A stretch of 64,000 bases of DNA from Saprospira sp. CCB-QB6 (GCF_028464065.1 NZ_CP116808.1:1199886-1263885), one strand, 5' to 3'; shown: positions 22,184-35,937, numbered from the stretch's first letter. Numbers and translations: made by a program. Notes: generated from the letters alone by a model not told the origin.

Positions 22184-22975
22184 TTACTCATCCGAATCAT
22201 CATCTAAGTTCATCGCTGTAGATTGTCCCTTAGGCATCATACTCGTATCATCCCAAAGTTTAGACACCCAAAAGCGAAGAACCGCCTGTTTCTTTTCCTC
22301 TTTATCAAGATAACCATAATTTCCAGCTGTCTTGGCTTCTAATCGGAAATTGGTTTCTGTTCCCGTCCAACGGAAACTAATTTTTCGCCAAAGCAAACCA
22401 TAACTAGCTTTAACGTGCTTTACTACACCTTGACCATAAGTAGCCGTAGCAATGGCATAAGTCAAAGCATATTTAGCTCTTTTCTTTCGTCCCGCAGCAT
22501 GCGCAATAATTTCAAAGGCTTGTACGCCCTCCAAATCGGAAACGATTGGGTGCCAGCGACCATCGGCAGGGATTTCTCCTTGAACAAAGGTACCTACGCG
22601 GCCATTTGCCCCAAGCATTCCATTTACCTCTAGCTTAAAGTTGGGCAAAGTGGTCCCAATTCCAACATTACCTCCTTTGCGTAAGAAAAGGAGACTTTCA
22701 TTTTCGCCATCATTAAAGCTTAAGCCCTCGCTATGTGGAGTGGGATTCATAGAAACGCTAAACGAGGCTTGCGGGTCCCGAATGCTTTCATAGAAGCTCA
22801 TCAAGCGCTTATTTGGGCCTTGAGTGGCCAACATAAGGCCCTCCGTAGAACTTTGAGAAAAACCATCATCAACCTTATTGACGGTAGAGTCGATAAGGTC
22901 GGCAAAGTTTACTTCTGTGGGGACCATGCCCCTCTTGAATAGATTCTTGAGCGTGCTACGCGTGAGTAAAGCCAT
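22184..22975 (-). CDS. Putative baseplate-attached or tail-fibre-like protein (last gene of the cluster)
   Basis: 263 aa, co-oriented and downstream of the baseplate gene. The N-terminus (LKNLFKRGMVPTEVNFADLIDS) resembles phage fibre anchors only loosely. Confidence 0.6.
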   Translation of the reverse strand: MALLTRSTLKNLFKRGMVPTEVNFADLIDSTVNKVDDGFSQSSTEGLMLATQGPNKRLMSFYESIRDPQASFSVSMNPTPHSEGLSFNDGENESLLFLRKGGNVGIGTTLPNFKLEVNGMLGANGRVGTFVQGEIPADGRWHPIVSDLEGVQAFEIIAHAAGRKKRAKYALTYAIATATYGQGVVKHVKASYGLLWRKISFRWTGTETNFRLEAKTAGNYGYLDKEEKKQAVLRFWVSKLWDDTSMMPKGQSTAMNLDDDSDE

Positions 22976-23117
22976 TGGGTTAAATACTTTAACTTAGGTA
23001 AAGGCGGGTGAATGCCTCCAAATTTAAAAAATTGTTTGGAAAAGGCGCAGCCAAAACGATTTTATAATTTAGATTTTCTTAATAACGCCTTTATTTATTG
23101 TTTTTTGCTGCTTTTGA

Positions 23118-23285
23118 GGTGGCGGAGCCGCCTGTGAGCGAAGCGAGCCATGGCCCAGCGCTGCGCAGCAGTGGCCGCAGGCCAGACCTAGCGGGCGCAG
23201 CCCGCGCAGGGCCGAGCAGACTTGCGAGCTGCGAAGCATAGCGGCGGCCGCCCCACTATAAAGGGCGGCCGCGGGCCCCTAAAAA
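23118..23285 (-). repeat. GC-rich interspersed element, variant A reverse, plus a GCGGCCGC hairpin module
   Basis: gccagacc..gggccgagcag..., then agcggcggccgcccc..gggcggccgcgggc. Confidence 0.8.
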
Positions 23286-23307
23286 TGGTTATTCTAGGCC
23301 TAAAAAA

Positions 23308-23342
23308 GGCCCAAAAGTGCGGAAACTTCTGGGCCTAAGTTT
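23308..23342 (-). terminator. Terminator or attenuator after the baseplate gene
   Basis: On the minus strand, the hairpin ggcccagaag..cttttgggcc is followed by TTTTTT, immediately 3' of the stop at 23362. Confidence 0.45.
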
Positions 23343-23361
23343 TTATAATTTTCTAGCTCGT

Positions 23362-26300
23362 TTAATCGTCTAGTTCACGCTCTTCGGTCATTACAAAGTC
23401 TCCATCGAGCATCATATTGTCTAATCCAGCCTTGGCAGGTGATTGGAAAGCCACCTCGTCTAATAAGTAGAGTGGGTTTTTCTCGAAAGGAATGAGGACC
23501 GACCAAGGGGTAGTTGCCTTAAGTAAGGGAGAAGAAGAATTATCGATTGCGGTATCGCCTACATCAAAGCCTTCTCCGCTAGGGAATACCTGTACGGCAG
23601 AGAATTTCGTGACAAAATCGACATATTCTCTTTTTTCGATAAAGCTGAGGAGAACGTCTTTAGCTAGTGTTCCTCCTAGTTCTAATTCTCTTTGGCCGCC
23701 ATACATCCAGGGGCAGACAAAGTCCATAATATCCTTATTCAATTTTTTGAGAAAAGTACCGTTGTTCATGCCTTTTTGGAAGCGCAGACCGCCGGCTACT
23801 TTTACTCTTTCGTAAATAGGGTTACGGAGTTTAATATCGACAAAGGGGGAAGCTAAAGGAGTAAGATAATCTCGGATAGCCTCAAGAGTAGCGTTATTTA
23901 CCATAGGTAGGCGACCTTGATGAGCAGCCTTAATTCGAGGAACGACAACAAGGACCACTTGGCCTTTATCGACAAATTCTTCATGGCCAATATGGGTAAC
24001 GCATTTCACTTGAAAAATGTCGGGAAATTGATCGAGTACTAAGCGTTCATAATCCCAAGCAGACACTGCTCTTCCTTTATGGCGGAGGCGTTCGCTACTT
24101 CGGGTATAGAACTCTTTTTTATTTTCGCCAGGTCGTCCTTCAAAAGAGCCAAAAGGCTGTTGGACAGATCGAATTTGGACCAATGGATTGACCAAATTTT
24201 TGATCTTATTAGCGGCTAGTTTTTCTTCTAAGTGTTCTACTTCGTCTTCGGGTTCTCCAGCCCAGGTTGCAGAAATAGCTTGTGTTGATAGGTGAAGGAC
24301 AGTGGGCATTCGGCTTGCATCTCCGCGGAGAGAGGCTCGCAGCCAAAACTTACCTTTTTCGAAGATCGTGTTATTCTCAGAAATATCTCTGGGGATATCG
24401 AAGGTGATAATTCCAGAATTATTAAAGAAATTGGTGGTATCGTTTAGAATTTGTGTCTGAGAGAACTCCTTCCACTCATCATTTACGAGAAAGCTCCATA
24501 CAATTTCGGCTTGTTTGGCCTCACTGCTTCGGCCCTTCATCATAGAGAAATAGTCTTGATTCTCTTTGAGCTCGAAGTAGACAGAAAGAGTTGCTGGTGG
24601 GTTGAAGTCTTTGATTCCGAGGAAGAGATAAGCATCCTCGTCATAAGCGGGCAAAAGTGTGGGCTTAATTGGGCGGCCTTGAGAGAAGTTACGCATCACG
24701 CCAAAGGGGTGAATATGGAAGAGTTCTTCTACTACACCGCCAGAGCTATTCACTGTACCGATAGACATAATATTAACTTGAGCGGTTGCTGTATAGTCAA
24801 TACTCATGTTTCTGATTACAGGAGTAAAAGGTTGATTCGGAAGCTTTTTCTTCTCTTTAGTTTTGGGGTCTGCGTTATAAGCAGCCACATCAGCATAAAG
24901 ATTTGGAAACTCATCATGGGCGAATGCAGAGGGTGGATTTGTTAATTCCATACGGAAGTAGCCAGTCTGCGTTTCGCTGGTATAAGTGTCTAGTTGTTTA
25001 AGGTCTGCTTGAGGTTCGAGATCAAAAAGCTTAAGATCGATATTATCTAGGCAAGTGGCCGAGCTAATACCGTGAACGTTATCTTCATCCTGTTCAAAGA
25101 GGAAATATTCTTTGACATTATTCTTAGCTTCAGGGAAGAACTCTCCTTCTCGCAAAGCGGATAGTTTGATTCGGTAATCCTCATTTCGAACTCCTAGGCC
25201 ATACTCACGATAGTAGCCTCGGAGGCCTTTTGTATTATCGGGTAGATTATGCCAGTTAATATTGATTTTCAGATTGGTCAGTTCCTTTTTAAAGAGCTCT
25301 GTTTTTCCGATGAGAAGATAAGAACCAAGTTTTGGTGTAGGGCCAAAAGCTTGAAAAGGGATACTGCCTTCTAGTTGGCCATATTCATTGCTGAGGTTTA
25401 GGCGTTTAATTCCTTTAACCTCTACGTCGATGTTAATTCTTTCTAGGCTTAGCTCTTTAAGGAAAGAGTAAGAGTAGGTCACATTTTCATTTTGGTGAAG
25501 GACCTTCATCACAGGAAGAGTCGTGTCGAAGTCGGGGCCTAAAACGGCAGCATCGTAGCCTACAATAGCAGGAGCATTGGCTGAAACGGTAGCGAGCAGA
25601 CTAAACTCAGGGATGTTCCAATTTTCTGGAGGGAGTAGTTCGCAGCTTTTTGCTTCAATCCATCCTTCTTCTCCAGAGAGGAGTAGTTTCAGGCTATTTT
25701 TAAAAATTTTAGAGAAGGCATCTTCTTTAGAGAGCCCTTGATTACGGCTAATATCCTTAATTAAGAGATTAAGGGTATACATAGAAGACTTGTCAAATCG
25801 CATGCGCAATTTAATGCTTCTGTGTCCTTCTTCCATTTCTAAGATAGGAGCGGCCATAGCCCAACCTACTTCGGCATAGACCATTTGGCGTTCATCGGCT
25901 GCTTTCTCGAGTAGTTCTTCTCCGAAAGCGGGCCATTCCTCTTCATTATTGATAAAGCGTTTGCCTAAGCCATCTCTAGAGTTGGCAATAGGTGCGGCAT
26001 ACATATTAGTAATTAGGCGGTAAGAGCTACCGATACCAATTTTTGGATTTTTGCTTACAAAAAGCGTCTTCACCGAATCAACTTTAGCTTGATTCAATTC
26101 GATACCATAATCAGTTTTATAGCGAATAGGCTTGCCATTTTCGTCTACTCCAGCATCGAGTAGTGTACCTGCAGGCAAGAAAAAGCTATCAATATGTTTA
26201 GCTAAATTGAAATAGACATTCACCTGATCGGGTTGTAAGCCTCTTTCTTGCATTTTAAGCACATCGTAATAGTAAAAATCGAGATGCTTTTCGGTTAGGG

Positions 26301-27132
26301 TATTTAGGTGGTCCTGATTATGTTTAAAGAGTTTAACAAAAGCGATAAATAATGCTAAATCAGGGCGGTGATCATCTTTTTCTTTAAGTGATTTCTCTAG
26401 GTATTTTGGTGCTTCTTGTACGATATAGGAAAGCACACTATAAAAGGTCCGGAATTGCAGGCGGATCTTTTTGGTATAATCTTGAATTTTAAAATTGGCT
26501 CTAGGATCTTCTACTTCAATAGCGCGAGCAGAGAGCAACTTTTTAGAGGGGAACCAAATGCTATGAAAGTTCTCTTCAATTTCGTTGGGGCTATAAATCC
26601 CTGTTTGGTGAAACTCTAGATAGCGATCTTGTTCTAAGAGTTCGAGTAGGTTAGAAGAAAGCTGTTGTTTAATTGCGTTTTCCAATTCATTTTCCAGTTC
26701 ATCGGTATCGCCTGGTTGCAAGGTATTCATTTTGAGTGCATGCTCATACCAATCATTGAACTGTTTGGCCATATCGAAGACCTGGGTATACAGAGCCTTA
26801 AGCGCTTCTAGGCGACCAGCTGTGCGGGCTGCATTTTCTAGCTCAGTAATATATTTGGCGTGTTCCTGCTCAATTTTTTTAAGGTCGGTTGCAATAATTG
26901 AGGCCAAAAATACAGAAAGGTCATTGCGCAAAAAGCGCGACCAATCTCCTGCGGGGGAGTTAGTTTGGTCATAGAACTGGACCATTTCGGCATATTTGGC
27001 AGAAAAGGCAAGGAGGTCACTAGTAGAGCGTTCATCTACCTTAATATATTCTGGGATGAGGGCTTTGAGCAATCGTTGGCTCTGCGTTACGCCATTCCAG
27101 GATAGGCTAGATTTATTCTTTTTGGTACTCAT
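23362..27132 (-). CDS. Large baseplate protein (Afp11/gp6 baseplate-J-like, possibly fused with a gp7-like part)
   Basis: 1256 aa, directly downstream of the gp25-like and PAAR genes. Size and position match eCIS baseplate wedge proteins. No motif confirmed by eye. Confidence 0.7.
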   Translation of the reverse strand: MSTKKNKSSLSWNGVTQSQRLLKALIPEYIKVDERSTSDLLAFSAKYAEMVQFYDQTNSPAGDWSRFLRNDLSVFLASIIATDLKKIEQEHAKYITELENAARTAGRLEALKALYTQVFDMAKQFNDWYEHALKMNTLQPGDTDELENELENAIKQQLSSNLLELLEQDRYLEFHQTGIYSPNEIEENFHSIWFPSKKLLSARAIEVEDPRANFKIQDYTKKIRLQFRTFYSVLSYIVQEAPKYLEKSLKEKDDHRPDLALFIAFVKLFKHNQDHLNTLTEKHLDFYYYDVLKMQERGLQPDQVNVYFNLAKHIDSFFLPAGTLLDAGVDENGKPIRYKTDYGIELNQAKVDSVKTLFVSKNPKIGIGSSYRLITNMYAAPIANSRDGLGKRFINNEEEWPAFGEELLEKAADERQMVYAEVGWAMAAPILEMEEGHRSIKLRMRFDKSSMYTLNLLIKDISRNQGLSKEDAFSKIFKNSLKLLLSGEEGWIEAKSCELLPPENWNIPEFSLLATVSANAPAIVGYDAAVLGPDFDTTLPVMKVLHQNENVTYSYSFLKELSLERINIDVEVKGIKRLNLSNEYGQLEGSIPFQAFGPTPKLGSYLLIGKTELFKKELTNLKININWHNLPDNTKGLRGYYREYGLGVRNEDYRIKLSALREGEFFPEAKNNVKEYFLFEQDEDNVHGISSATCLDNIDLKLFDLEPQADLKQLDTYTSETQTGYFRMELTNPPSAFAHDEFPNLYADVAAYNADPKTKEKKKLPNQPFTPVIRNMSIDYTATAQVNIMSIGTVNSSGGVVEELFHIHPFGVMRNFSQGRPIKPTLLPAYDEDAYLFLGIKDFNPPATLSVYFELKENQDYFSMMKGRSSEAKQAEIVWSFLVNDEWKEFSQTQILNDTTNFFNNSGIITFDIPRDISENNTIFEKGKFWLRASLRGDASRMPTVLHLSTQAISATWAGEPEDEVEHLEEKLAANKIKNLVNPLVQIRSVQQPFGSFEGRPGENKKEFYTRSSERLRHKGRAVSAWDYERLVLDQFPDIFQVKCVTHIGHEEFVDKGQVVLVVVPRIKAAHQGRLPMVNNATLEAIRDYLTPLASPFVDIKLRNPIYERVKVAGGLRFQKGMNNGTFLKKLNKDIMDFVCPWMYGGQRELELGGTLAKDVLLSFIEKREYVDFVTKFSAVQVFPSGEGFDVGDTAIDNSSSPLLKATTPWSVLIPFEKNPLYLLDEVAFQSPAKAGLDNMMLDGDFVMTEERELDD

Positions 27133-27196
27133 GCTAAGGTGCGCTTAAGAGGATGGTTATTGTTGTTCTGATAGTGATAGTTGGGGCTATAGTGAT

Positions 27197-27613
27197 TTAG
27201 AGCTCGGTACCTTCTGCAAGGTAGAAAGGATAGACCATGTTATTACGAGCATTCACCCCCTTAATTTCATAAACTACATTTACATTTACACGGCCACGGA
27301 GTTGTTCGCTTTCATCTACATCGACAGAGATGAGGCGAATACGGGGCTCATGATACAGGATGGCTGTAGTAATGAGATCTTGAATCCGAATTCGGGTAGC
27401 ATTGTTAATGCTTTGAAAAGCTTGGCTATGGATATCGCAACCATAGCTAGGGTTCATGATTCGTTCGCCGGGGAGTGTAGATAATAAGATATTAAGAGAC
27501 TCCTTAATATCTTCTTCGTCTTGAGACATAACAATTCCGCGGGTAGAGTCGCTAAAACGTGGAGGGAAGCTCCAGCCTGAGCCTAAAAATGATTTTTGGA
27601 TATCGTCTGACAT
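27197..27613 (-). CDS. gp25-like baseplate wedge protein (GPW/gp25 family, Afp9-like)
   Basis: 138 aa with LSTLPGERIMNPSYGCDIH, matching the GPW_gp25 core motif. Confidence 0.85.
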   Translation of the reverse strand: MSDDIQKSFLGSGWSFPPRFSDSTRGIVMSQDEEDIKESLNILLSTLPGERIMNPSYGCDIHSQAFQSINNATRIRIQDLITTAILYHEPRIRLISVDVDESEQLRGRVNVNVVYEIKGVNARNNMVYPFYLAEGTEL

Positions 27614-27679
27614 GCTTAGAAATTTCTTATCGTCTAAAAAATTGGGATCAACTATTTATTTTAGGAGCAAAGCAGGCGC

Positions 27680-27808
27680 TGAATTGGCCTAGCGCTGTGG
27701 AAGGGTGGCCCTCAGGCCAGACCGAGGCGGCAAAGCCGCGGCCGAAGGGCCGAGCAGTCCTGCGAGCCCTGAAACCTAGCGCCGCAGCAAAGCTGCGGAG
27801 GCCCCTAA
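27680..27808 (-). repeat. GC-rich interspersed element, variant B reverse, inside the cluster
   Basis: cctagcgctgtgg..gccagaccgaggcggcaaagccgc..cctgcgagccc..gcagctttgctgcggaggcccc. Confidence 0.85.
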
Positions 27809-27812
27809 ACTA

Positions 27813-28103
27813 CTAACCAATAAGCACCGTAGGGGCTCCAGCTACCACTGCTCCGCCATGGCCACAAGAATCACCAATACGGGCAGCGGGTTTACCTTCA
27901 ATCATGACTGTTCCTGAGCCAGAAGCAATAGAGTCGCCAGCGCAGGCACAGACGGCAGAATCGCCAAGGCGGGCCGCGGGGATTCCAGTCACCATAACAG
28001 TTCCGGCACCGCTAACAATAGGTCCTCCAACATGAGGAGCTGGACCGGGGCAAACGGCGGGGCAAACGTGCATATCGCCAATTCGGGCAGAGGGCATTCC
28101 CAT
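27813..28103 (-). CDS. PAAR-domain spike tip protein
   Basis: 96 aa, Gly/Ala-rich, with two PAAR motifs (GIPAARLGD, GKPAARIGD). Confidence 0.85.
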   Translation of the reverse strand: MGMPSARIGDMHVCPAVCPGPAPHVGGPIVSGAGTVMVTGIPAARLGDSAVCACAGDSIASGSGTVMIEGKPAARIGDSCGHGGAVVAGAPTVLIG

Positions 28104-28124: not shown

Positions 28125-29969
28125 CTAGTTAATTTTCACTAAACCACCTTTCACTTCACATAGTCCGCCGCCTTCTAGCTTAGCAGAGGCAGAACCTTTG
28201 AGTTCCATAGTGGTTGAGCCTTCTCCTTTTACAGCCAAGGCCTTAATAGAGAAATTGGCTGTGGCTTCCATTTTTGTATCGGAACCTGATTTGGTCTCGA
28301 TGTTAATGTCTGCCTCCATTTTAATATTTTTCTTGGCTTTAACGACAAAGTCTCCATCCGTTTCGAAGAGAATTCCATTTTTGTCCATCAACATTTTGTT
28401 GACATTCACGGGGTCTTCGATCAAGATCGTATCTTCATCGTCATTAAGCTCCACGATCATTTTATCCTCTGTAATAATCTTGACGATATTTTTGCCAGGA
28501 TCATCTTGAAGTTCGATACGTGTTTTTCCTTTATTGATAGAGATAGCTTTAAAGATATTGGGATCGGCAGGAATATGCGTTTCCTCGGTGGTAATACCTC
28601 TTCCGCTACTATACATAGAGCCCAAAATGACGGGATAAGTGGGATCAGCATTAAAAAAGCCAACAACCACTTCATCGCCTACTTCGGGATAAAATACAAA
28701 TCCGCAATCTTCGGTGGCATAATAATGCGCCATACGCGCCCAAACGCCTTCACCAGCTTGATCATCAATAATTGGGATATTGATTAAAACGCGAAACTCA
28801 CCATCTGGATCTGAGTCAATTTGCTTAACTACACCATGTTGTAGGCCATGAATAGCCGGTAAAGTTCCTCCTGCTGGGCGAGAGCTGGCCGTAAGGTTGG
28901 CCTCCATATAAGGTTGAGGATCCATACCTAAGCCCACCTCTGTTAACCATTGTCCTTTAAGGATAGTGTGGCGAACTTTGCTTACATAAGCATCGCCGAC
29001 AAAGCGGGTTCCAAAACCAAAAAGCTCAATTGTTTTACCCAATTCTGCTTTGGCCGAACCATAAAACTTCAGACTACCTCGAATTCGAGAGAGATGTCCT
29101 CTTTGATAAACGGAGTCTGCCCAAGACTGGATCACATCTTTAGTTACAGGAGGAGTGGTTTTGACCGTATTTTTGGGTTCAATAACGGCCCCCAACTTAG
29201 CAGAGTCCAAGTCTCCCTGTGCATTAACCTTTGGTTTAGCGCCATCAGCTGTTACAATAGCCAAATCTGTATGACTCCAACTGGTTGCACCAACCTCTTT
29301 ATATTGATAGGTTGAGTCAATATTCATATCCATCTCTACCAAGTCATTTCCATAAGAAATAACGAGTTCAGACTTCTCACTAACCGTAGGTTTCTTAATA
29401 CTAATTTCACCATCATCAATGATAGTCACCAAGCTATTCACATCAGCCCGAGAGTGTATAAAATCCCAATCAGTGCTCCAATATTGAATTAACTTCTTGT
29501 GCTTTCCTTTCGTTGCTTCCACATCCGCAGAAAGTCCAGCCTCACTCACAACTGCCGAAATAATATCCGAATCAAGCTGATCATAAAAAACCTTGTTTTT
29601 CCGGCCAACAGTTAGTTTAAGCGCTTTATCCTTACACTTGAGCACTAGAGCTGCTCCACTATAATTAGACTGCTTAATACCATGCTCTACTAAGATACCT
29701 TTATAAAGGGTTTGCTCTTTACCAGGACCATAACCTGCTTTTACCTCCACTTCTTTTCCCGGCTCAAACATGGCATCCTCAGAGGTCGGAAACTTCTGTT
29801 CCCGAGTATCTCCGTCCTTAAGCGTAATAAGAGCATAAGGAATCTTATTCAATTCCTTTACAATATCTACGCTCTCCACGACCATTGTTTTAGGCACCTC
29901 GGTTCCATCTATCAGTACAAGTACCGACAGATAGCCTTCGCCCATGCCTTTTACTGGAGAATCTGCCAT
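28125..29969 (-). CDS. VgrG / phage late-control-D-like spike protein (gp27-gp5-like, Afp8-like)
   Basis: 614 aa, with beta-rich repeats at the C-terminus and the expected position between the tube genes and PAAR. Confidence 0.75.
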   Translation of the reverse strand: MADSPVKGMGEGYLSVLVLIDGTEVPKTMVVESVDIVKELNKIPYALITLKDGDTREQKFPTSEDAMFEPGKEVEVKAGYGPGKEQTLYKGILVEHGIKQSNYSGAALVLKCKDKALKLTVGRKNKVFYDQLDSDIISAVVSEAGLSADVEATKGKHKKLIQYWSTDWDFIHSRADVNSLVTIIDDGEISIKKPTVSEKSELVISYGNDLVEMDMNIDSTYQYKEVGATSWSHTDLAIVTADGAKPKVNAQGDLDSAKLGAVIEPKNTVKTTPPVTKDVIQSWADSVYQRGHLSRIRGSLKFYGSAKAELGKTIELFGFGTRFVGDAYVSKVRHTILKGQWLTEVGLGMDPQPYMEANLTASSRPAGGTLPAIHGLQHGVVKQIDSDPDGEFRVLINIPIIDDQAGEGVWARMAHYYATEDCGFVFYPEVGDEVVVGFFNADPTYPVILGSMYSSGRGITTEETHIPADPNIFKAISINKGKTRIELQDDPGKNIVKIITEDKMIVELNDDEDTILIEDPVNVNKMLMDKNGILFETDGDFVVKAKKNIKMEADINIETKSGSDTKMEATANFSIKALAVKGEGSTTMELKGSASAKLEGGGLCEVKGGLVKIN

Positions 29970-30005: not shown

Positions 30006-30194
30006 CTATCGATTCATTTTGTACTCCCAAGCTTCCATTGCCCGTCGTACTGCTTCCTGAATCAAAATTTCTTTATCTTTTTCGGTCATTCCCTTTCCCT
30101 GATCCTTCCCATCTTTTTTCCCTTGACCTTTGCCTCCACCATTTTCTGCATTCACATTGGTGTTGACATTCATCTCTTTTACTGTTACTGCCAT
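30006..30194 (-). CDS. Small Lys/Gly-rich protein (62 aa), Afp6-like position
   Basis: Co-oriented small ORF between the Afp5-like tube and the spike genes. Confidence 0.45.
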   Translation of the reverse strand: MAVTVKEMNVNTNVNAENGGGKGQGKKDGKDQGKGMTEKDKEILIQEAVRRAMEAWEYKMNR

Positions 30195-30228: not shown

Positions 30229-30346
30229 GGGGCCTGCGGGCTACGCCCGCCGCTATGTTTCAGGGCTCGCAAGCCTGCTCGGCCCTTCAGCCGCCTTTGG
30301 CGGCTTCGGTCTGGCCCTGCGGGCCACCCTTCCACAGCGCTAGGCC
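30229..30346 (+). repeat. GC-rich interspersed element, variant B, inside the cluster
   Basis: GGGGCCTGCGGG...GGGCTCGCAAG...CACAGCGCTAGGCC. Confidence 0.85.
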
Positions 30347-30360
30347 ATAAACGGCTTCGC

Positions 30361-31050
30361 TTAATGTGCTACTACCTTAGAGAATGCATAAGAAAGTTCA
30401 ATCTCCTGAACCAACAAATCCTCTGAAGTAGAATTCAATGAGCTCAAACTCATTTTAGACGGATACGCAAAATTAAATTCCATAGAAATCAAAATCTGCG
30501 GCTTTCCCGATTGTGTAAGGTTAGGATGCATAACATTAACCTGAACTCCCTTCAACTTAAGCTGCTTATTCCAAGAAGCCATAGCATCAAAACTCTCCTC
30601 ACACCACTGTGTCCAAGGGTCAGAACTTTTAATCACATCTGGCCGAACTAGACGCTTAAGCGTAATTGCAGAGTTTTTCATCTTATCAGGTAAGTCAATA
30701 GGATAATTGTATCCCCCCTCATTATAAGTCTTCTTCCCCTCTAGTCCAATCTCTAATCCACTCACCTCTATAAATGAGTTGTGAATATTGGTGTCGCCTG
30801 GCGTAGGCAAGCCATTCGCACCACCACCATCAAGTTTGTTAATCCCCTGTTTAAGCAATCCTCCGGCCATGCCCCCAACAAAAGTATCGACAGCTCCTTT
30901 GGCTACTCCTGCCAAAAAGCTATTTCCCTCATGCTTTTGATCATACATCTGCACATCAAAGTAAAAAGCGGGAATGGGCGAGGTTGTTTTCTCGTCCTCT
31001 TTCATTACTTCATCTAAAAAGCGCTCAAATGGGCTAATGGTATTATTCAT
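30361..31050 (-). CDS. Tube-family protein with insertion (Afp5/Pvc5-like)
   Basis: PAFYFDVQM...FIEVSGLEIGLE echoes the tube-protein core of the two neighbouring tube genes. Confidence 0.65.
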   Translation of the reverse strand: MNNTISPFERFLDEVMKEDEKTTSPIPAFYFDVQMYDQKHEGNSFLAGVAKGAVDTFVGGMAGGLLKQGINKLDGGGANGLPTPGDTNIHNSFIEVSGLEIGLEGKKTYNEGGYNYPIDLPDKMKNSAITLKRLVRPDVIKSSDPWTQWCEESFDAMASWNKQLKLKGVQVNVMHPNLTQSGKPQILISMEFNFAYPSKMSLSSLNSTSEDLLVQEIELSYAFSKVVAH

Positions 31051-31110
31051 ATCTTATTGGGATTATCTATAGCTATTGGTCTAAAAGTTAATTTGCTAAG
31101 CAGTTTCAAT

Positions 31111-31569
31111 TTAACCGCCTACCTGCGTTTCAAAATGACGGAAGGCAAATTCCATCTCCTCTACCGCTACTTCATTTTCAGATTCAGCATCAAAATTAGA
31201 GGGAATGTACTTTGTAATAAAAGCCTTTTCAAGCCGCCAAATAAACTGCGTCTCCATATTGTGATCCAAGAGATGAATTTCAATTGTCCGACGAGAAGTA
31301 TACTCCCGACTCACCGCTACCTGATCAAACAAACGACTCATTTGATCATCCTGAGAGAAAGAGCCTTTCTTAAGTGTAATCCGACTATATTGCAACATGC
31401 CAGGCATGCGCTCCTTTCCAAAAAAGGGAGAATTACCATCTCGGTACTCAATCACCCCAATCTCCGCTTCCAAACCATCTACAGTCTGAAAAGACATTTC
31501 AATTGGACCAATAAACACCCGAAAGCTAAAGCGCGTTAGGGGCCATGTCATTGTGGAATCTGAACTCAT
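31111..31569 (-). CDS. Phage-tail tube protein (T4 gp19 / Hcp-like fold), copy 2
   Basis: WPLTRFSFRV...FQTVDGLEAEIGVIEYRDGN, paralogous to the 31818-32273 product. Confidence 0.85.
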   Translation of the reverse strand: MSSDSTMTWPLTRFSFRVFIGPIEMSFQTVDGLEAEIGVIEYRDGNSPFFGKERMPGMLQYSRITLKKGSFSQDDQMSRLFDQVAVSREYTSRRTIEIHLLDHNMETQFIWRLEKAFITKYIPSNFDAESENEVAVEEMEFAFRHFETQVGG

Positions 31570-31757
31570 AACATCTATTTTTAAGAAAGCAGCTGCCCAA
31601 GTTAACTAGCTAAATACTAGCGTCAAGGCATGGATTTTTTGGGCCTATGCCCTGAAAATAGCGCTTAGCGATATCACCTTTAATAATCAGGCAGTTAAGA
31701 CTCGCTATAAGTTAAGCGCTTTAGGCTACTAAATTAAAGAAAAAATCTTAATAGCAC

Positions 31758-31792
31758 AAAAAAAACCTAGCAGGTTTTTACCTGCCAGGTTT
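31758..31792 (-). terminator. Hairpin plus T-run (attenuator) after the major tube gene
   Basis: On the minus strand, the hairpin cctggcagg..cctgctagg is followed by T8, directly 3' of the stop at 31818. Confidence 0.45.
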
Positions 31793-31817
31793 AATTTATT
31801 GCTAAGCTAAATTAAGC

Positions 31818-32273
31818 TTATGCAGTTTCCATAGTCCACTCTTCGCAGCAGAACTCAAGTTCTTCGATAGCGACTTCAGAGTCAGCTTCTGCGTCAAAAG
31901 GAGTAGGAGTAAACTTAGTAACGAAAGCGTTGAGAAGAGTCCAAGTGAAAACGATCTCATCAGCTTCATTCATCAAGTGAATGATTACAGTACGACGCTC
32001 AGTGTGCTGGTGGTCAACTGAAAGCTCTTTGTACCACTGATATAGGTAGTCATCGCTCTGGAAAGTACCCTTCTTCAAGGTGATGTTGCTATAAGACATC
32101 AAACCAGGACGCTTAGTCTTGTAGAAGTTGGTAGAGTTACCTGCGCGGTACTCCATTACAGAAATCTCAGTCTCAAGACCTTCGATTGTCTGGAAGCCCA
32201 AAGTGTTGGGGATATTGTCAATCTCGATAGAGAAGTAAAACTTAGGCAGTGGCCATTCTGTTGTTGCAGACAT
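31818..32273 (-). CDS. Phage-tail tube protein (T4 gp19-like, Afp1/Pvc1-like), major copy
   Basis: WPLPKFYFSIEI...FQTIEGLETEISVMEYRAGN. Codon usage is strongly biased, consistent with high expression. Confidence 0.9.
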   Translation of the reverse strand: MSATTEWPLPKFYFSIEIDNIPNTLGFQTIEGLETEISVMEYRAGNSTNFYKTKRPGLMSYSNITLKKGTFQSDDYLYQWYKELSVDHQHTERRTVIIHLMNEADEIVFTWTLLNAFVTKFTPTPFDAEADSEVAIEELEFCCEEWTMETA

Positions 32274-32385
32274 GATATATGGCGTTTAAAAGTATGATCT
32301 AAATTTAAATTGTTGATGCTCTCTTGTTTAAGCCCAAGAGAAAGGCTCAATGCTTTAGATGTCATCTCTAAGTTAAGCGCAAAGC

Positions 32386-33879
32386 TTACTCAGCACCACC
32401 GGGCATTTTTTGCTGGAAGGTGATAACGATGAATTCAGCAGGACGAGAGATAGCTACTTTCACAGAAACTTTCATGTAACCATCTAGGATATCCTGAGGA
32501 GTCATAGTTGTACCCAAACCAACTTCTACTTGGAAAGCTTGGTCTTCAGTAGCACCTACCAAAGCACCTGCTTGCCACTGGCTACGCAAGAATGAACCAA
32601 TCATTGATTTAACTGCGATCCAAGTGTTAGCGTCATTGGGACGGAATACGAAAGGCTCACAAGCGAACTTCACAGACTGCTCCAACATGATCATAGTACG
32701 ACGTACGTTGATGTAGCGCCAGTCTTGGCTGTTACCGTCTAGAGTACGAGCACCCCATACCAAAGTACCTTTTCCAACGAAAGGACGGATAGCGTTGATT
32801 GCTTTACCACTCAAAGGCAAGTTCAAGTCTTCTTGCTCAGTAGCAGAAATGTTAACAGTAGGTCCAGTTACAGAAGAAACTGATACGTTAGCAGGAGCTT
32901 TGAATACACCTACAGTGCTGTCTACCAAAGAGTAAAGACCAGCGATAGCACCAGAAGGAGGCAATACGTTCAACATATCGCGCATTTGACCCAATACATC
33001 GTTGTATACAGGGCTTACAGCCTTCATGATGTTGTGTACAGCAGTTACGTTAGCATCAGCGTCAGCCATCTTAGCGATCTCAGCTTTGATCAACTCACCT
33101 TTTTCAGCTTTAACGAAACCAGCAGCTACGTTGTCATCAACTTCTTTGTTAAGCAATTCAACGAAACCTTCTAGGTTAGCAACGTTAGTGTAGTCAAACT
33201 CATCAGCTTGAACAACAGTAGCTTTCAACCAAGGGTAGTAAGCAGCACCAAAGTCTAGGAAGTTGTTGCCATAAGCCTCACGAGCGCGAGTTACAACATC
33301 ATCATCTAGCATGCTGCGAGATTCGTTACCGTTCCATACATCTAGGATAGCGAAGCGGCTGCGAGTATCAGCACCACAGTGCTTCAACATAGCTTGCTGT
33401 ACAGTAGCACAGTCACCTTCTTCCAAAGAGATAGCATCGGGAACTACAACCAAAGTAGGCTCTTGCTCCTTCAACAAAGCAGTGATACCACCGCCGTTCT
33501 CAGTACCAACTAGTGTTTTGGGAGAAACGTCATCGCCGTATCCACCAACAGAAACGATGTAGCAAGTTCCACCACCGTTAGCGTAGAACATTTGAAGGCT
33601 ACGGAACAACATGTAGTTACCGCCATCAACAGAAACGGTGTAGTTGTCACCTTCAGCATCAACGTTGAAAGTAGTTTTGGGAGCACCACCGAAGTAAGAT
33701 AGGTACTCAACCAAAGAAGTAATGCGCATTGGCGTGTTAGTCAAGTCGCGCTTACCAGCAGCGGCTTTCTCAGTGTGGCCAATGAAAGCAGGGATAGCAG
33801 TTCCTACTGCTACAACAGAATTCGAGAAGGCGCTTTTTTCTTCGATATAAACGCCTGGTGTTGCATACTGTTTTGCCAT
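32386..33879 (-). CDS. Contractile tail sheath protein
   Basis: N-terminus MAKQYATPGVYIEEKS is the phage/eCIS sheath signature. 497 aa with strongly biased codon usage (gct/ggt/gtt/aac/gaa). Confidence 0.9.
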   Translation of the reverse strand: MAKQYATPGVYIEEKSAFSNSVVAVGTAIPAFIGHTEKAAAGKRDLTNTPMRITSLVEYLSYFGGAPKTTFNVDAEGDNYTVSVDGGNYMLFRSLQMFYANGGGTCYIVSVGGYGDDVSPKTLVGTENGGGITALLKEQEPTLVVVPDAISLEEGDCATVQQAMLKHCGADTRSRFAILDVWNGNESRSMLDDDVVTRAREAYGNNFLDFGAAYYPWLKATVVQADEFDYTNVANLEGFVELLNKEVDDNVAAGFVKAEKGELIKAEIAKMADADANVTAVHNIMKAVSPVYNDVLGQMRDMLNVLPPSGAIAGLYSLVDSTVGVFKAPANVSVSSVTGPTVNISATEQEDLNLPLSGKAINAIRPFVGKGTLVWGARTLDGNSQDWRYINVRRTMIMLEQSVKFACEPFVFRPNDANTWIAVKSMIGSFLRSQWQAGALVGATEDQAFQVEVGLGTTMTPQDILDGYMKVSVKVAISRPAEFIVITFQQKMPGGAE

Positions 33880-33935
33880 GATTTAATTTATTTTGAAAAG
33901 TTTAATTGATTTACAAATTTATTTCTATCAACTGA

Positions 33936-35063
33936 TTACAAATATACAATTATTTCGGAAAACACAGCATCCTCAACGTTAAAATCTGTTTTTAATATTG
34001 ATTTTGCTGAATGATTAGGTAAATCTGTAATCCATTCAATTCCATTTTTGCCTCTTTTGGTCCTGAGTTTAAAGCGACTAAGTTGTTTCTCCTTAAAGGG
34101 AACAGGCTCTGAAGTTTTGACCAATATAGCCATTTCGCCAGAAGGCATTTCCACCTCTTCCGCTTCTTCAAAGTCTACTGTTTCGCCAGCTCGACCATTA
34201 TCGTAAGCTTCATGTCCTTTGTGCTGCTTATCCTCTGACATTTCCACTATATAGTAGTGCCAAGGCAGTGAACGAGCGGGAAAATGAATATTATAATCTC
34301 TTTTGGGCAACAACTTCCCTTCTGCATCAAAAAAGCGGTAAGGGCTGTCATCCTCCTTGTCAATATAAATATCCACTACGCCCCAAATACCTGCGGTTCC
34401 TTCTGGAGCCATATAAAAAGTATATTCTTCCAAACCATCTAGCTGCAAAATATACTTTCCGGCAGGTGCATCAGGCATGACCACATCTACATGTGCATTT
34501 TCGCCCTCCTGTTCCAAAAAGAAATAAGATTGACCCAATTCATCAACGACCTCAATTTCCGCATCTTCCTCTTCATCATCAAATTCGTAGCGAAAAACGG
34601 GGCCTTCAATTGGTAAGCGATCCATTTCAGAAACTAACTCATCATTAGAGAGATTGCCAGCTTCATCTTCAATCTTATCTTCAGCCCGGTTAGTGAAGTG
34701 ATAAAGATAGTCACCAAACTCATAAGGAAGACCTGTATAGTTAAGGAAGAAAGCATCTTCTACCTTCATCCAAAAACTAAGCTTTAGGGGCTTTTCCAAA
34801 CTTTCTAAAGCAGGGCCTCCTGAAACTGTTTCCCCATAACCAATCAGCAAATTATTGCCTTCAAAGGCAGTTTTAAGCTGAGTTTGTTTTAGGCGAAAAA
34901 CCGTGTCGGAAGTAGGGCTAAGAACTACATCTTGACAGATCTGCTCATCAAAGTAATCGTGCAATATAGCTATGTTCAATAGCTGATTATAGCGAGTTTG
35001 GATGTTCAGCAGCATATGATGCTCCATCGGATTCCGTCGCCTGCTAATTTTACGTCTCTTCAT
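33936..35063 (-). CDS. Acidic hypothetical protein (375 aa) between the cap and sheath genes
   Basis: Long co-oriented ORF. The N-terminus may start later (MEHHMLL). No recognisable domain. Confidence 0.6.
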   Translation of the reverse strand: MKRRKISRRRNPMEHHMLLNIQTRYNQLLNIAILHDYFDEQICQDVVLSPTSDTVFRLKQTQLKTAFEGNNLLIGYGETVSGGPALESLEKPLKLSFWMKVEDAFFLNYTGLPYEFGDYLYHFTNRAEDKIEDEAGNLSNDELVSEMDRLPIEGPVFRYEFDDEEEDAEIEVVDELGQSYFFLEQEGENAHVDVVMPDAPAGKYILQLDGLEEYTFYMAPEGTAGIWGVVDIYIDKEDDSPYRFFDAEGKLLPKRDYNIHFPARSLPWHYYIVEMSEDKQHKGHEAYDNGRAGETVDFEEAEEVEMPSGEMAILVKTSEPVPFKEKQLSRFKLRTKRGKNGIEWITDLPNHSAKSILKTDFNVEDAVFSEIIVYL

Positions 35064-35251
35064 TAAGCTCTTCTGCTTTAAGTCCCTTAAAATTAGAGAA
35101 TTTAATTTTGGTCTGCAAAGTTTATATGCAGTTTTTTTTCATTTTTTTTAACAAAAGCTAAAATTTAGCTGAAGTTAAGTCTAGAAGCCCGATGAGCAGG
35201 GCTTTTCGCCTCATTAGTTAACTGTCTGAGGCTTTAGCGCTAGCTCATTTT

Positions 35252-35370
35252 GGCCTAGCGATGTGTAGGGGTGGCCGAAGGCCAGACCGAAGCGCGCAGC
35301 GCTGAAGGGCCGAGCGAACAGCGAGCCCCGAAACGTAGCGCCGACGAGCGTAGCGAGACGGAGGCCCCAA
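35252..35370 (-). repeat. GC-rich interspersed element, variant B reverse, inside the cluster
   Basis: ggcctagcgatgtg..gccagaccgaagcg..gggccgagcgaacagcgagcccc..ggaggcccc. Confidence 0.85.
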
Positions 35371-35376
35371 ATTCTT

Positions 35377-35937
35377 CTAAATCTTGCGAATAGATGGAAT
35401 TTCTAGCTCTGGTTTCTTATGCTCAATCGGAATCGTTTTGAAACGATAAAGGACCGAAGGCAAATACTTGGCCCCTACCCCATTCCAAACATTAGATACA
35501 TCCCTAAAATCAGGAGAAACCATTTCGGCCACCAAACGCGTAAGGCTACCCGAAAGCGCTGGCGTATTTTGCTCATTAAAGACGCCTTGGCGACTCTGGA
35601 AAAAAGCAATCACCGAGCTCACAAACTTAAGGCCCTCCAAATAATTTTCATTGGTAAAATAGGCCGAAAACAACATATATATATTGACTTCAACCGGCGG
35701 AATAACCTTAGTAAAATTCCCTCGCTTGTTGGGCTGATAGGTAGCCGTCGTGCTCTTATTTCGCTCTGCCTCAATATTGATGATCGTCATCACGATCTTA
35801 TCGGCCTCTTGCACCGCCATCGATCCATCGGCATTTACTAGATGCGAAATGATGACCTTATCCTCTAAAATATTGTGTTTAGACTGCAAAAAGCGATTGA
35901 GCTCGCCCACCACAGCCGTGACAACTTTATCAATCAT
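35377..35937 (-). CDS. Tail terminator / cap protein, DUF4255-like (Afp16-like)
   Basis: 186 aa. It is the first gene upstream of the sheath module, as in many eCIS loci. The assignment rests on size and position only. Confidence 0.55.
   Translation of the reverse strand: MIDKVVTAVVGELNRFLQSKHNILEDKVIISHLVNADGSMAVQEADKIVMTIINIEAERNKSTTATYQPNKRGNFTKVIPPVEVNIYMLFSAYFTNENYLEGLKFVSSVIAFFQSRQGVFNEQNTPALSGSLTRLVAEMVSPDFRDVSNVWNGVGAKYLPSVLYRFKTIPIEHKKPELEIPSIRKI

What the first reader, a model, noticed from the sequence alone, without database searches (positions are those of the whole stretch)
22184..35937. Phage-tail-like contractile injection system (eCIS / T6SS subtype iv-like) gene cluster
Fourteen co-directional minus-strand genes encode, in order: a DUF4255-like cap, a 375-aa unknown protein, sheath (MAKQYATPGVYIEE), two T4-gp19-like tube proteins, an Afp5-like tube variant, a 62-aa protein, a VgrG-like spike, PAAR, a gp25-like wedge (LPGERIMNPSYG), a 1256-aa baseplate protein and a 263-aa terminal protein. 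The single phage-type sheath, gp19-type tubes and the cap place it with Afp/PVC/MAC/T6SSiv systems, not with T6SSi-iii (no TssB/C split, no Hcp, no TssJLM/TssN-R). If the host really is Saprospiraceae-like, this may be the locus for rhapidosome or ixotrophy-type contractile structures. That link is speculative.
Basis: partly seen in the sequence, partly recalled or inferred. Interest (0 to 1): 0.9.

Follow-up and report, generated by a model that had tools for sequence, protein, structure and literature searches.

The report
Saprospira's prey-killing contractile injection system
This is the real, intact gene cluster for the phage-tail-like "spear gun" (type VI secretion system subtype iv) of an ixotrophic Saprospira strain; a closely related system in the sister genus Aureispira has already been shown to kill prey, so the finding is correct but not new.

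Summary
Window 22184-35937 (minus strand) carries 12 co-directional genes, not 14. They encode cap, cap adaptor, sheath, two tubes, a Cis5-like tube adaptor, the Cis6 plug, VgrG, PAAR, gp25, Cis11 and a Cis13-like fibre or anchor.

All ten proteins I looked up match Saprospira sp. CCB-QB6 exactly. Lien et al. list that strain as ixotrophy-positive. The sheath is 77% identical to the Aureispira sheath and to the Saprospira "cytoplasmic fibril protein", and gene order matches Aureispira anguillae.

- **The system is larger than reported.** Four conserved envelope genes lie just upstream (35943-41595): a secreted 346-aa protein, two Cis20-type proteins and an 85-aa two-helix membrane protein. In metagenomes, every evaluable relative with the membrane module (38 of 38) sat beside a cap gene; none of 27 without it did.
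- **Cis12 is an orphan gene** at 58866-62036.
- **Cis7, the tape measure (Cis14) and the ATPase (Cis15) are absent** from all 64 kb.
- **There are no prophage genes.** dN/dS is 0.00-0.06 for the 12 cluster genes compared with S. grandis DSM 2844, so those genes are under purifying selection.

Interest is moderate to low. The open point is which proteins build the still-unassigned trans-envelope complex.

The parts
40555..41595 (-). Secreted ~346-aa protein of unknown fold, with an N-terminal signal-peptide-like segment. The ORF extends to a TTG at 41634; the ATG at 41595 is the likelier start.
   Evidence: No Pfam, NCBIfam or PDB hit. Homologues occupy the same position in Aureispira anguillae L001 (40%), L014, L016 and L017. 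A homologue lies directly upstream of the Cis20-like gene in 12 of 25 evaluable metagenomic CIS loci. The AF2 single-sequence model was unusable (pLDDT 34.6).
38631..40517 (-). Cis20-type membrane protein, paralogue A (628 aa): signal peptide, periplasmic GH18/SleL-like domain, C-terminal transmembrane module.
   Evidence: Glyco_hydro_18 2.3e-27. Hydrophobic N-terminus, and C-terminal hydrophobic segments that align with the family's 3-helix module. Motif DGVEINFE. Closest solved relatives are YdhD 7e-31, YaaH and SleL.
36411..38588 (-). Cis20-type membrane protein, paralogue B (725 aa), with an insertion of about 100 aa in the periplasmic domain.
   Evidence: Glyco_hydro_18 6.2e-24. Three C-terminal TM segments. 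32% identical to paralogue A. 42% identical to the Aureispira orthologue at the same position.
35943..36200 (-). Small 85-aa membrane protein with two TM helices and an acidic C-terminal tail (EPEEEEE). It ends 5 nt before the cap gene.
   Evidence: Hydrophobicity scan. 63% identical in Aureispira. Present between the Cis20-like gene and the cap gene in 33 of 35 metagenomic CIS loci. dN/dS 0.02.
35377..35937 (-). Cis16A, tube/sheath terminator cap.
   Evidence: Pvc16_N 4.6e-30.
33936..35063 (-).
   Evidence: A family profile (A1) hits All3326/Cis16B 2.7e-18, the AlgoCIS cap adaptor 6e-16 and SalCis16b 7e-10. Position between cap and sheath matches AlgoCIS.
32386..33879 (-). Cis2, contractile sheath.
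   Evidence: Phage_sheath_1C 6e-14. PDB: SalCIS sheath 6.5e-155, AlgoCIS 6.8e-107, tCIS 8.7e-95. 77% identical to the A. anguillae sheath and to the Saprospira SS98-5 'cytoplasmic fibril protein'.
31818..32273 (-). Cis1a, inner tube protein.
   Evidence: Phage_T4_gp19 3.5e-34. 100% aa identity to DSM 2844, dS 0.09.
31763..31792 (-). Terminator-like hairpin (13-bp stem plus T run) just after the sheath and first tube genes.
   Evidence: Consensus scan only; function not shown.
31111..31569 (-). Cis1b, second tube paralogue (47% identical to Cis1a).
   Evidence: Phage_T4_gp19 1.8e-27; pairwise comparison.
30361..31050 (-). Cis5-like tube adaptor (229 aa) with an 89-aa N-terminal extension.
   Evidence: gp19 domain at residues 90-221. 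Weak NCBIfam CIS5_fam hit (3.9e-07, below its cut-off). PDB: the 158-aa tube-family chain 9rce_I of the SalCIS baseplate (role not given in the record) 3.7e-12, Alg5 3e-4, and All3323, a 167-aa tube-family chain of the tCIS baseplate. It sits before Cis6, as Alg5 does.
30006..30194 (-). Cis6, spike plug.
   Evidence: DUF5908 4e-06, just above the cut-off. Alg6/Afp6 family role taken from PMC8894135.
28125..29969 (-). Cis8, VgrG-like spike.
   Evidence: Phage_base_V 5.6e-20, weak Phage_GPD. Named VgrG in the source record.
27813..28103 (-). Cis10, PAAR tip.
   Evidence: PAAR_motif 1.1e-24.
27197..27613 (-). Cis9, gp25-like wedge and sheath initiator.
   Evidence: GPW_gp25 8e-26.
23362..27132 (-). 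Cis11, gp6/Baseplate-J-like wedge protein with a long extra region (1256 aa, against 607 aa for Afp11).
   Evidence: PDB: All3317 1.3e-121, Alg11 4.5e-118, SalCis11 1.2e-108, Pvc11, Afp11. The length is the same as the cage-forming Cis11 of tCIS.
23307..23336 (-). Terminator-like hairpin after cis11.
   Evidence: In S. grandis DSM 2844 an IS4/5 element is inserted just beyond it.
22184..22975 (-). Cis13-like short fibre or anchor protein (263 aa) with no TM helix.
   Evidence: A family profile (A2) matches the N-terminal 40 residues of All3316 (tCIS Cis13, the part that binds Cis11) at 1.5e-5. A GNVGIGT..KLEV repeat matches Bdellovibrio fibre proteins at 7e-6. It always follows cis11 in relatives. 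The AF2 model was unusable.
58866..62036 (-). Cis12, gp6/gp7-like wedge protein. It is encoded as an orphan gene 23 kb from the main cluster.
   Evidence: PDB: Alg12 1.5e-86, All3315 8.3e-76, SalCis12, Pvc12, Afp12. Its neighbours are housekeeping genes. The arrangement is the same in S. grandis DSM 2844, and the gene is also an orphan in A. anguillae.

Best explanation
This is the main structural locus of the membrane-anchored contractile injection system (T6SS subtype iv, CIS clade Ib) of Saprospira sp. CCB-QB6. It is related by sequence and gene order to the Aureispira system that kills prey during ixotrophy.

**Assembly (inferred from solved homologues).**
- A VgrG trimer, tipped by PAAR and plugged by Cis6, nucleates a baseplate.
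- The baseplate contains gp25 and six Cis11-Cis12 wedges. Cis12 comes from the orphan gene at 58866-62036.
- Cis13-like trimers bind the Cis11 C-terminus.
- Tube (Cis1a/1b, on Cis5) and sheath polymerise in the cytoplasm and are closed by the cap and cap adaptor.

**Anchoring (inferred from the SalCIS model and from the gene linkage shown here).**
- Two Cis20-type proteins anchor the baseplate at the inner membrane. Each has a periplasmic domain related to peptidoglycan-acting GH18 enzymes and three TM helices.
- An 85-aa two-helix protein and a secreted 346-aa protein probably take part as well. Together these proteins would open or span the cell wall.

**Firing (shown in Aureispira only).** On prey contact the sheath contracts and drives the tube and spike through the predator's envelope into the prey. 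The prey lyses and is consumed.

The classical Saprospira 'rhapidosomes' and 'cytoplasmic fibrils' are these sheath-tube assemblies.
For: - **Family assignments:**
- **Source strain:** all ten proteins looked up match Saprospira sp. CCB-QB6 exactly. That strain is listed as ixotrophy-positive.
- **Relatedness to Aureispira:** sheath 77% identical, gene order shared from the secreted protein through gp25.
- **Experimental basis in Aureispira:** IM-anchored 420-nm T6SSiv, loss of killing in cis14/cis11 IS mutants, and rhapidosomes equated with T6SSiv.
- **Membrane module is part of the system:** 38 of 38 evaluable GH18 relatives with at least two C-terminal TM segments are directly followed by the small TM gene, cap, adaptor and sheath, or by a second copy and then those genes. 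None of 27 relatives without the TM module is (L030 was corrected by hand). The small TM gene is present in 33 of 35 such loci.
- **Same architecture as SalCis20,** which was shown to be an inner-membrane protein with a SleL-like periplasmic domain. The closest solved relatives here are YdhD, YaaH and SleL.
- **Purifying selection:** dN/dS is 0.00-0.06 for the 12 cluster genes compared with DSM 2844, like the neighbouring PDH E1-alpha gene at 0.036.
Against: - No experiment exists on this strain's locus. The mode of action is transferred from Aureispira.
- Cis7 (PF19266), the tape measure Cis14 (PF19268) and the AAA+ ATPase Cis15 are not found anywhere in the 64-kb window.
- A search with Aureispira Cis7 returned no named Saprospira protein, so completeness of the machine is assumed, not shown.
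- I could not establish a sequence link between these GH18-3TM proteins and SalCis20 (PDB 9R9A). It was not among the 60 listed hits of the full-length profile, and the TM-module profile hit nothing.
- The GH18 catalytic motif is non-canonical (D-x-x-E-x-N-x-E), so hydrolase activity is uncertain.
Confidence: 0.85

Rival explanations
1. It is an extracellular CIS (eCIS, like AlgoCIS, Afp or PVC). Particles are assembled in the cytoplasm and released by cell lysis, then bind targets through fibres. On this reading, rhapidosomes seen in lysates are the functional released form.
For: The core parts list and gene order are almost identical to AlgoCIS, an eCIS of the same clade Ib. There is no ClpV-type recycling ATPase in the window. 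From my own knowledge, rhapidosomes were historically seen in lysed Saprospira preparations.
Against: The cluster carries dedicated inner-membrane components: two Cis20-type proteins and a two-TM protein. These are strictly linked to this CIS lineage and are not listed among the 18 AlgoCIS ORFs. There is no long Ig-like tail fibre such as Alg19, only a short Cis13-like protein. The sister-genus system is IM-anchored in situ and contact-dependent.
Confidence: 0.08
2. It is a remnant of a myovirus prophage or an R-type tailocin locus.
For: All core proteins belong to phage-tail families (sheath, gp19, gp25, gp5/gp27, PAAR).
Against: No capsid, portal, terminase, integrase or lysis cassette occurs in 64 kb. 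The flanks are housekeeping genes. No phage record covers 80% or more of the sheath, and the best matches are at most 35% identical over 40% of it. The locus has CIS-specific parts (Pvc16_N cap, Cis16B, Cis6, extended Cis11). It is collinear in a second Saprospira genome at 88% nucleotide identity.
Confidence: 0.02
3. The locus is an incomplete, decaying system that no longer builds a machine, because the tube initiator Cis7, the tape measure and the ATPase are missing.
For: None of these three is in the window. IS elements and a split cis13 occur in other S. grandis genomes.
Against: All 12 genes are intact. dN/dS is 0.00-0.06, equal to a housekeeping neighbour. Sheath and tube show the very low dS expected of highly expressed genes. 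Cis12 shows that system genes are dispersed in this family, and it is also an orphan in Aureispira anguillae. The strain is reported as ixotrophy-positive.
Confidence: 0.05

Closest known systems
Aureispira sp. CCB-QB1 / A. anguillae T6SS subtype iv (ixotrophy weapon; Lien et al., bioRxiv 10.1101/2024.01.29.577165, Science 2024)
   Same: - Same family (Saprospiraceae).
- Sheath 77% identical; VgrG 58%, gp25 63%, cap 59%.
- Same gene order: secreted protein, two Cis20-type proteins, 85-aa TM protein, cap, adaptor, sheath, tubes, plug, VgrG, PAAR, gp25.
- Cis12 is an orphan gene in both.
   Different: - A. anguillae has a PF19266 Cis7 gene and three small ORFs between PAAR and gp25. They are absent here.
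- It has an SLT lytic transglycosylase upstream, which has no counterpart in the window.
- The gene after gp25 in A. anguillae is not similar to this Cis11.
- No experiments exist for the Saprospira locus.
SalCIS of Salmonella enterica subsp. salamae (PMC13266070; PDB 9R9H, 9RCE, 9R9N, 9R9A)
   Same: - It has the closest solved sheath (6.5e-155).
- It shares the cap adaptor, extended Cis11, Cis12 and a trimeric Cis13-type putative anchor.
- It shares a Cis20-type protein: Sec signal, SleL-like periplasmic domain and three TM helices.
   Different: - Cis20 is single there and, as far as I can infer from the 'SalCis16a-SalCis20' construct and the paired SalCis13/SalCis20 deletion, lies at the far end of the operon from the cap. 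Here it is duplicated and lies upstream of the cap.
- Sequence similarity between SalCis20 and the Saprospira proteins was not recovered.
- No secretion or killing was detected for SalCIS.
AlgoCIS of Algoriphagus machipongonensis (PMC8894135; PDB 7ADZ, 7AEB)
   Same: - Clade Ib.
- Identical core order: cap, adaptor, sheath, tube, Cis5, Cis6, then VgrG, PAAR, gp25, Cis11.
- Cap adaptor, plug and Cis11 extension are shared.
   Different: - AlgoCIS is an eCIS that lies free in the cytoplasm.
- It has Cis7, Cis12, an Alg19 fibre, a tape measure, DUF4157 cargo proteins and an ATPase in the cluster.
- No Cis20-type or small TM gene is listed among its 18 ORFs.
Thylakoid-anchored CIS of Anabaena PCC 7120 (PMC8894136; PDB 7B5H, 7B5I)
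   Same: - Cis11 is of the same length (1231 against 1256 aa) and matches at 1.3e-121.
- Cis16B matches.
- The Cis13 N-terminal baseplate-binding segment matches.
   Different: - Anabaena Cis13 has a C-terminal TM helix; the Saprospira protein has none.
- There is no Cis19 crown here.
- Anchoring there is to thylakoids.

Membership tests
Afp/PVC-like CIS superfamily (dbeCIS; eCIS/T6SSiv) | Single phage-type contractile sheath (Phage_sheath_1/1C), not a TssB/TssC pair | tested here: met
Afp/PVC-like CIS superfamily (dbeCIS; eCIS/T6SSiv) | gp19-type inner tube protein(s) | tested here: met
   two full-length gp19 proteins plus one Cis5-like protein.
Afp/PVC-like CIS superfamily (dbeCIS; eCIS/T6SSiv) | VgrG-like spike, PAAR tip and gp25 wedge | tested here: met
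Afp/PVC-like CIS superfamily (dbeCIS; eCIS/T6SSiv) | Cis11 and Cis12 (gp6/gp7-like) wedge pair | tested here: met
   Cis11. Cis12, but it is encoded 23 kb away at 58866-62036.
Afp/PVC-like CIS superfamily (dbeCIS; eCIS/T6SSiv) | Pvc16_N (DUF4255) cap | tested here: met
   E 4.6e-30.
Afp/PVC-like CIS superfamily (dbeCIS; eCIS/T6SSiv) | Tube initiator Cis7 (PF19266), tape measure Cis14 (PF19268), AAA+ ATPase Cis15 | tested here: not met
   None is in the 64-kb window: Pfam scans and tblastn with Aureispira, Fulvivirga and L016 proteins (the only AAA hit is FtsH). The rest of the genome could not be searched. A related Fulvivirga locus has all three in the cluster.
CIS clade Ib (AlgoCIS, tCIS, MAC, T6SSiv, SalCIS) | Cap adaptor Cis16B | tested here: met
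   2.7e-18, 6e-16 and 7e-10 to the three solved adaptors.
CIS clade Ib (AlgoCIS, tCIS, MAC, T6SSiv, SalCIS) | Cis6 plug | tested here: met
   DUF5908 at 28.0 bits against a cut-off of 27.7. The position before VgrG is as expected.
CIS clade Ib (AlgoCIS, tCIS, MAC, T6SSiv, SalCIS) | Cis11 extension forming a cage around the spike | tested here: inconclusive
   The protein is 1256 aa, against 607 aa for Afp11, and the same length as All3317. Homology of residues 1 to about 470 to a cage domain was not shown, and no usable structure model was obtained.
T6SS subtype iv / SalCIS-like membrane-associated CIS | Sheath groups with characterised T6SSiv sheaths | tested here: met
   77% identity to the Aureispira sheath. 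Lien et al. place S. grandis Cis2 with Aureispira. I did not compute a tree.
T6SS subtype iv / SalCIS-like membrane-associated CIS | Short Cis13-type anchor instead of a long tail fibre | tested here: met
   The N-terminal 40 aa match tCIS Cis13 at 1.5e-5. The gene always follows cis11. A direct comparison with Aasi_0556 or SalCis13 was not possible.
T6SS subtype iv / SalCIS-like membrane-associated CIS | Cis20: Sec signal, SleL-like periplasmic domain and three C-terminal TM helices, encoded in the CIS cluster | tested here: inconclusive
   The architecture and the SleL/YdhD affinity are met, and the linkage to CIS genes is strict. Sequence homology to SalCis20 (9R9A) was not recovered.
T6SS subtype iv / SalCIS-like membrane-associated CIS | Baseplate anchored to the inner membrane in situ; contact-dependent firing | not testable with these tools
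   This needs cryo-ET and killing assays. It has been shown only for Aureispira.
Canonical T6SS (subtypes i-iii) | TssB/TssC sheath, Hcp tube, TssJLM or TssN-R membrane complex, ClpV | tested here: not met
   No such Pfam family was hit in any window ORF of 120 aa or more that is not an antisense shadow.
Prophage / R-type tailocin | Head, portal, terminase, integrase or holin-endolysin genes adjoining the tail genes | tested here: not met

The most novel reading that the evidence does not exclude
Lien et al. saw a trans-envelope complex with inner-membrane, periplasmic and outer-membrane parts in the ixotrophy T6SSiv and left its proteins unassigned. The most novel reading is that the four conserved genes just upstream of the cap build that complex, at least its inner-membrane and periplasmic parts. 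These genes are the two diverged Cis20 paralogues, the near-universal 85-aa two-TM protein with an acidic tail, and the secreted ~346-aa protein. The 85-aa and 346-aa proteins would then be new, undescribed CIS components. The Cis20 duplication would be the Saprospiraceae-specific elaboration that turns a simple anchor into a six-fold conduit.
Probability: 0.3. Interest if true: 0.6.

Novelty: already known. Interest (0 to 1): 0.35.

Why it matters
The locus encodes the killing device of a classical bacterial predator and explains the sixty-year-old 'rhapidosome' puzzle. That link was made experimentally in Aureispira in 2024, and the Saprospira cluster is mentioned there, so the finding confirms rather than discovers.

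What this check adds is a corrected parts list for Saprospira:
- The cap adaptor, plug, Cis13-like protein, Cis20 (two copies), the small TM protein and the secreted protein are identified.
- cis12 is an orphan gene.
- cis7, cis14 and cis15 are not in the window.

It also adds a clean genomic rule: among the loci examined, the GH18-3TM protein and the 85-aa membrane protein were found only directly upstream of the cap gene of this CIS lineage. That gives concrete candidates for the unassigned trans-envelope complex and a sequence marker for membrane-anchored as opposed to released clade-Ib systems.

Tried and rejected
- **AF2 single-sequence models** of the secreted 346-aa protein and the Cis13-like protein gave pLDDT 34.6 and 33.0. 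They were unusable, so I ran no fold search.
- **I first thought the GH18-3TM module might be an undescribed CIS component.** The 2026 SalCIS paper already defines it as Cis20.
- **A profile of the C-terminal TM module against the PDB** found nothing, including 9R9A.
- **A search with Aureispira Cis7** returned no named Saprospira homologue.
- **An exact-sequence contig look-up of the window's Cis12** found nothing. The strain was identified through cluster membership instead.
- **The sigma-70 promoter scan** was no better than shuffles (37 sites against 33.7) and does not apply to Bacteroidota anyway.
- **I considered the GH18 proteins as secreted chitinase cargo and as a holin/endolysin-type lysis cassette, and set both aside.** A cleavable signal plus a C-terminal 3-TM anchor fits neither tube loading nor known endolysin types. 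Most family members also lack the canonical DxE aspartate.
- **The 56-aa ORF (23069-23239) and the 104-aa ORF (36193-36507)** were rejected as genes. They are low-complexity or overlapping, and the 56-aa ORF is not conserved.

Full report
**Observation.** The ORF map shows an uninterrupted run of minus-strand ORFs between 22184 and 35937. Pfam searches recover these families:

| Coordinates | Family | E-value |
|---|---|---|
| 35377-35937 | Pvc16_N cap | 4.6e-30 |
| 32386-33879 | Phage_sheath_1C / Phage_sheath_1 | 6.1e-14 / 6.9e-06 |
| 31818-32273 | Phage_T4_gp19 | 3.5e-34 |
| 31111-31569 | Phage_T4_gp19 | 1.8e-27 |
| 30361-31050 | gp19 domain in the C-terminal part of a 229-aa protein | 9e-13 |
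| 30006-30194 | DUF5908 | 4e-06 |
| 28125-29969 | Phage_base_V (VgrG) | 5.6e-20 |
| 27813-28103 | PAAR_motif | 1.1e-24 |
| 27197-27613 | GPW_gp25 | 8e-26 |

I also find twelve credible genes.

**The proteins Pfam could not name.**
- The 1256-aa protein matches solved Cis11 chains: tCIS All3317 1.3e-121, Alg11 4.5e-118, SalCis11 1.2e-108, Pvc11 and Afp11. It is the same length as the 1231-aa cage-forming Cis11 of Anabaena.
- A profile of the 375-aa family hits the three solved cap adaptors: All3326/Cis16B 2.7e-18, the AlgoCIS adaptor 6e-16 and SalCis16b 7e-10.
- A profile of the 263-aa family matches the first 40 residues of All3316, the tCIS Cis13, at 1.5e-5. In tCIS the N-terminus of Cis13 binds the baseplate, where it is contacted by the C-terminal extension of Cis11.
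- The same profile matches a repeat found in Bdellovibrio fibre proteins at 7e-6.
- The 263-aa protein has no TM helix.
- The 229-aa protein is best described as Cis5-like.
- The 62-aa protein is the Cis6 plug family.

**Source and relatives.**
- All ten window proteins I looked up are exact matches to Saprospira sp. CCB-QB6, a 4.19-Mb genome.
- S. grandis DSM 2844 is collinear with the window at about 88% nucleotide identity.
- The sheath cluster contains the S. grandis Lewin protein that UniProt names 'Cytoplasmic fibril protein'.
- The sheath is 77% identical to those of Aureispira anguillae and Saprospira SS98-5.
- The A. anguillae locus has the same order of genes.
- Lien et al. showed that the Aureispira T6SSiv is inner-membrane anchored, 420 nm long and required for killing prey in ixotrophy.
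- Lien et al. also say rhapidosomes are likely these structures and note that S. grandis harbours a CIS cluster. They use CCB-QB6 as an ixotrophy-positive strain.

**Surroundings.**
- Every ORF of 120 aa or more that is not an antisense shadow was scanned. There is no capsid, portal, terminase, integrase, TssB/C, Hcp or TssJLM.
- The flanks are housekeeping genes (PDH E1-alpha, FtsH, UvrC, MqnC, tRNAs).
- No phage record has a sheath covering 80% or more of this one.
- Between CCB-QB6 and DSM 2844, the 12 cluster genes compared have dN/dS of 0.00-0.06, like the adjacent PDH gene at 0.036.
- Sheath and first tube have much lower dS (0.16 and 0.09) than the rest (0.24-1.6). That pattern is expected for very highly expressed genes.
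- A strong terminator-like hairpin follows the first tube gene, and another follows cis11.

**The system extends beyond the reported coordinates.**

*Upstream module.* Four co-directional genes lie directly upstream of the cap:
- a signal-peptide protein (40555-41595);
- two GH18-domain proteins (38631-40517 and 36411-38588), each with an N-terminal signal and a C-terminal three-helix transmembrane module;
- an 85-aa protein with two TM helices and an acidic tail (35943-36200), ending 5 nt before the cap gene.

The same module precedes the cap gene in Aureispira, in three other genomic or metagenomic loci, and in Fulvivirga imtechensis, whose sheath is only 60% identical.

I scanned metagenomes with the GH18 alignment and obtained 80 loci, which gave these counts:
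- All 38 evaluable relatives with at least two C-terminal TM segments are directly followed by the small TM gene, cap, adaptor and sheath, or by a second copy and then those genes.
- None of the 27 relatives without the TM module is (L030 was corrected by hand).
- The small TM gene is present in 33 of 35 CIS-linked loci.
- The secreted protein is detectable in 12 of 25 loci.
- Two GH18-3TM copies occur only in the six closest relatives.

The closest solved relatives of the periplasmic domain are the peptidoglycan-acting GH18 proteins YdhD, YaaH and SleL. The catalytic motif is non-canonical (D-x-x-E-x-N-x-E). Only one of nine aligned members keeps the aspartate of the D-x-E catalytic pair.

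This architecture is the Cis20 described in 2026 for the Salmonella salamae CIS: Sec signal, SleL-like periplasmic domain, three TM helices, and a proposed link to the baseplate through Cis13. The family is therefore not new. I could not recover sequence similarity to the solved SalCis20. AlgoCIS, a bona fide eCIS, lists no such gene among its 18 ORFs.

*Orphan cis12.* A 1056-aa protein at 58866-62036 matches Alg12 (1.5e-86), All3315 (8.3e-76), SalCis12, Pvc12 and Afp12. It stands alone among housekeeping genes. The arrangement is the same in S. grandis DSM 2844, and the gene is also an orphan in A. anguillae.

*Missing parts.* The tube initiator Cis7, the tape measure Cis14 and the ATPase Cis15 are nowhere in the window. 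In Fulvivirga all three lie in one contiguous cluster. Saprospiraceae have therefore dispersed the system. The location of these three genes in CCB-QB6 could not be determined with the tools available.

**Mechanism.** By homology to solved CIS structures:
- The VgrG-PAAR spike, plugged by Cis6, seeds a baseplate of gp25 and Cis11-Cis12 wedges.
- Cis13-like trimers sit on the Cis11 C-terminus.
- Tube and sheath polymerise and are closed by the cap and adaptor.

By the linkage shown here and the SalCIS model, the Cis20 paralogues hold the baseplate at the inner membrane and deal with the peptidoglycan layer. The 85-aa and secreted proteins probably take part. Contact-triggered contraction that punctures prey has been shown only in Aureispira. 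For Saprospira it is an inference from sequence relatedness, shared gene order and the strain's reported phenotype.

**Rivals.**
- A released eCIS is disfavoured by the dedicated membrane components and by the lack of a long fibre.
- A prophage or tailocin remnant is effectively excluded.
- A decaying locus is disfavoured by intact genes under strong purifying selection.

**Verdict.** The finding is real, correctly interpreted and biologically important, but already known. The remaining open point worth testing is whether the duplicated Cis20, the 85-aa membrane protein and the secreted protein make up the unassigned trans-envelope complex of the ixotrophy machine.

Noticed in passing
window 42525-45200 (-): An 891-aa protein with SprB repeats and a T9SS C-terminal sorting domain lies directly upstream of the CIS accessory genes on the same strand. 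Related loci carry other envelope genes at this position: PorP/SprF-OmpA plus a very large HYR/Ig/CHU_C protein in L016, and an SLT lytic transglycosylase in L001 and L014. Whether any of these relates to the extracellular 'antenna' is unknown.
   Followed up: partly
L004 14148-15085 (S. grandis DSM 2844), equivalent to window ~22976-23000: DSM 2844 carries an IS4/5-family DDE transposase (271 aa) between cis11 and the cis13-like gene, just beyond the cis11 terminator hairpin. Another S. grandis genome has the cis13-like gene split into 113 and 172 aa. This recalls the IS-mediated on/off switching reported for Aureispira.
   Followed up: partly
L005 3844-6291; L014 12631-14025; L016 12711-15290; L015 3181-5352: Relatives replace the second tube gene with 'evolved' tube proteins. 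These are 815 aa with gp19 at the C-terminus, 464 aa, and 859 aa with gp19 plus seven SprB repeats and Ig domains. One locus has a 723-aa EndoU-nuclease-domain protein between cis20 and the small TM gene. These are likely effector fusions or cargo. The window has none.
   Followed up: partly
window 31818-33879 compared with the rest of the cluster: Between CCB-QB6 and DSM 2844, synonymous divergence of the sheath (0.16) and first tube (0.09) is several-fold lower than in most other cluster genes (mostly 0.5-1.6; the 85-aa gene is 0.24). This fits strong codon-usage constraint from very high expression, or a recent exchange of this segment.
   Followed up: no
window 17006-20365 (-): A 1119-aa nSTAND1 NTPase fused to WD40 repeats lies one gene away from the cluster end. 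It is conserved at the same place in DSM 2844. No link to the CIS has been shown.
   Followed up: no
window 8693-11792 (-) and 12103-12816 (-): There are three tandem paralogues of DUF6976 (327-339 aa each, E about 1e-112 to 1e-119), followed by a MORN-repeat protein. Their function is unknown.
   Followed up: no
window 2098-2289 (-) and 55937-56110 (+): There are tandem duplicate tRNA genes: two tRNA-Gln(TTG) and two tRNA-Asn(GTT).
   Followed up: no
window 7814-8686 (-): A protoglobin-STAS fusion protein (290 aa), a putative gas-sensing partner-switching component.
   Followed up: no
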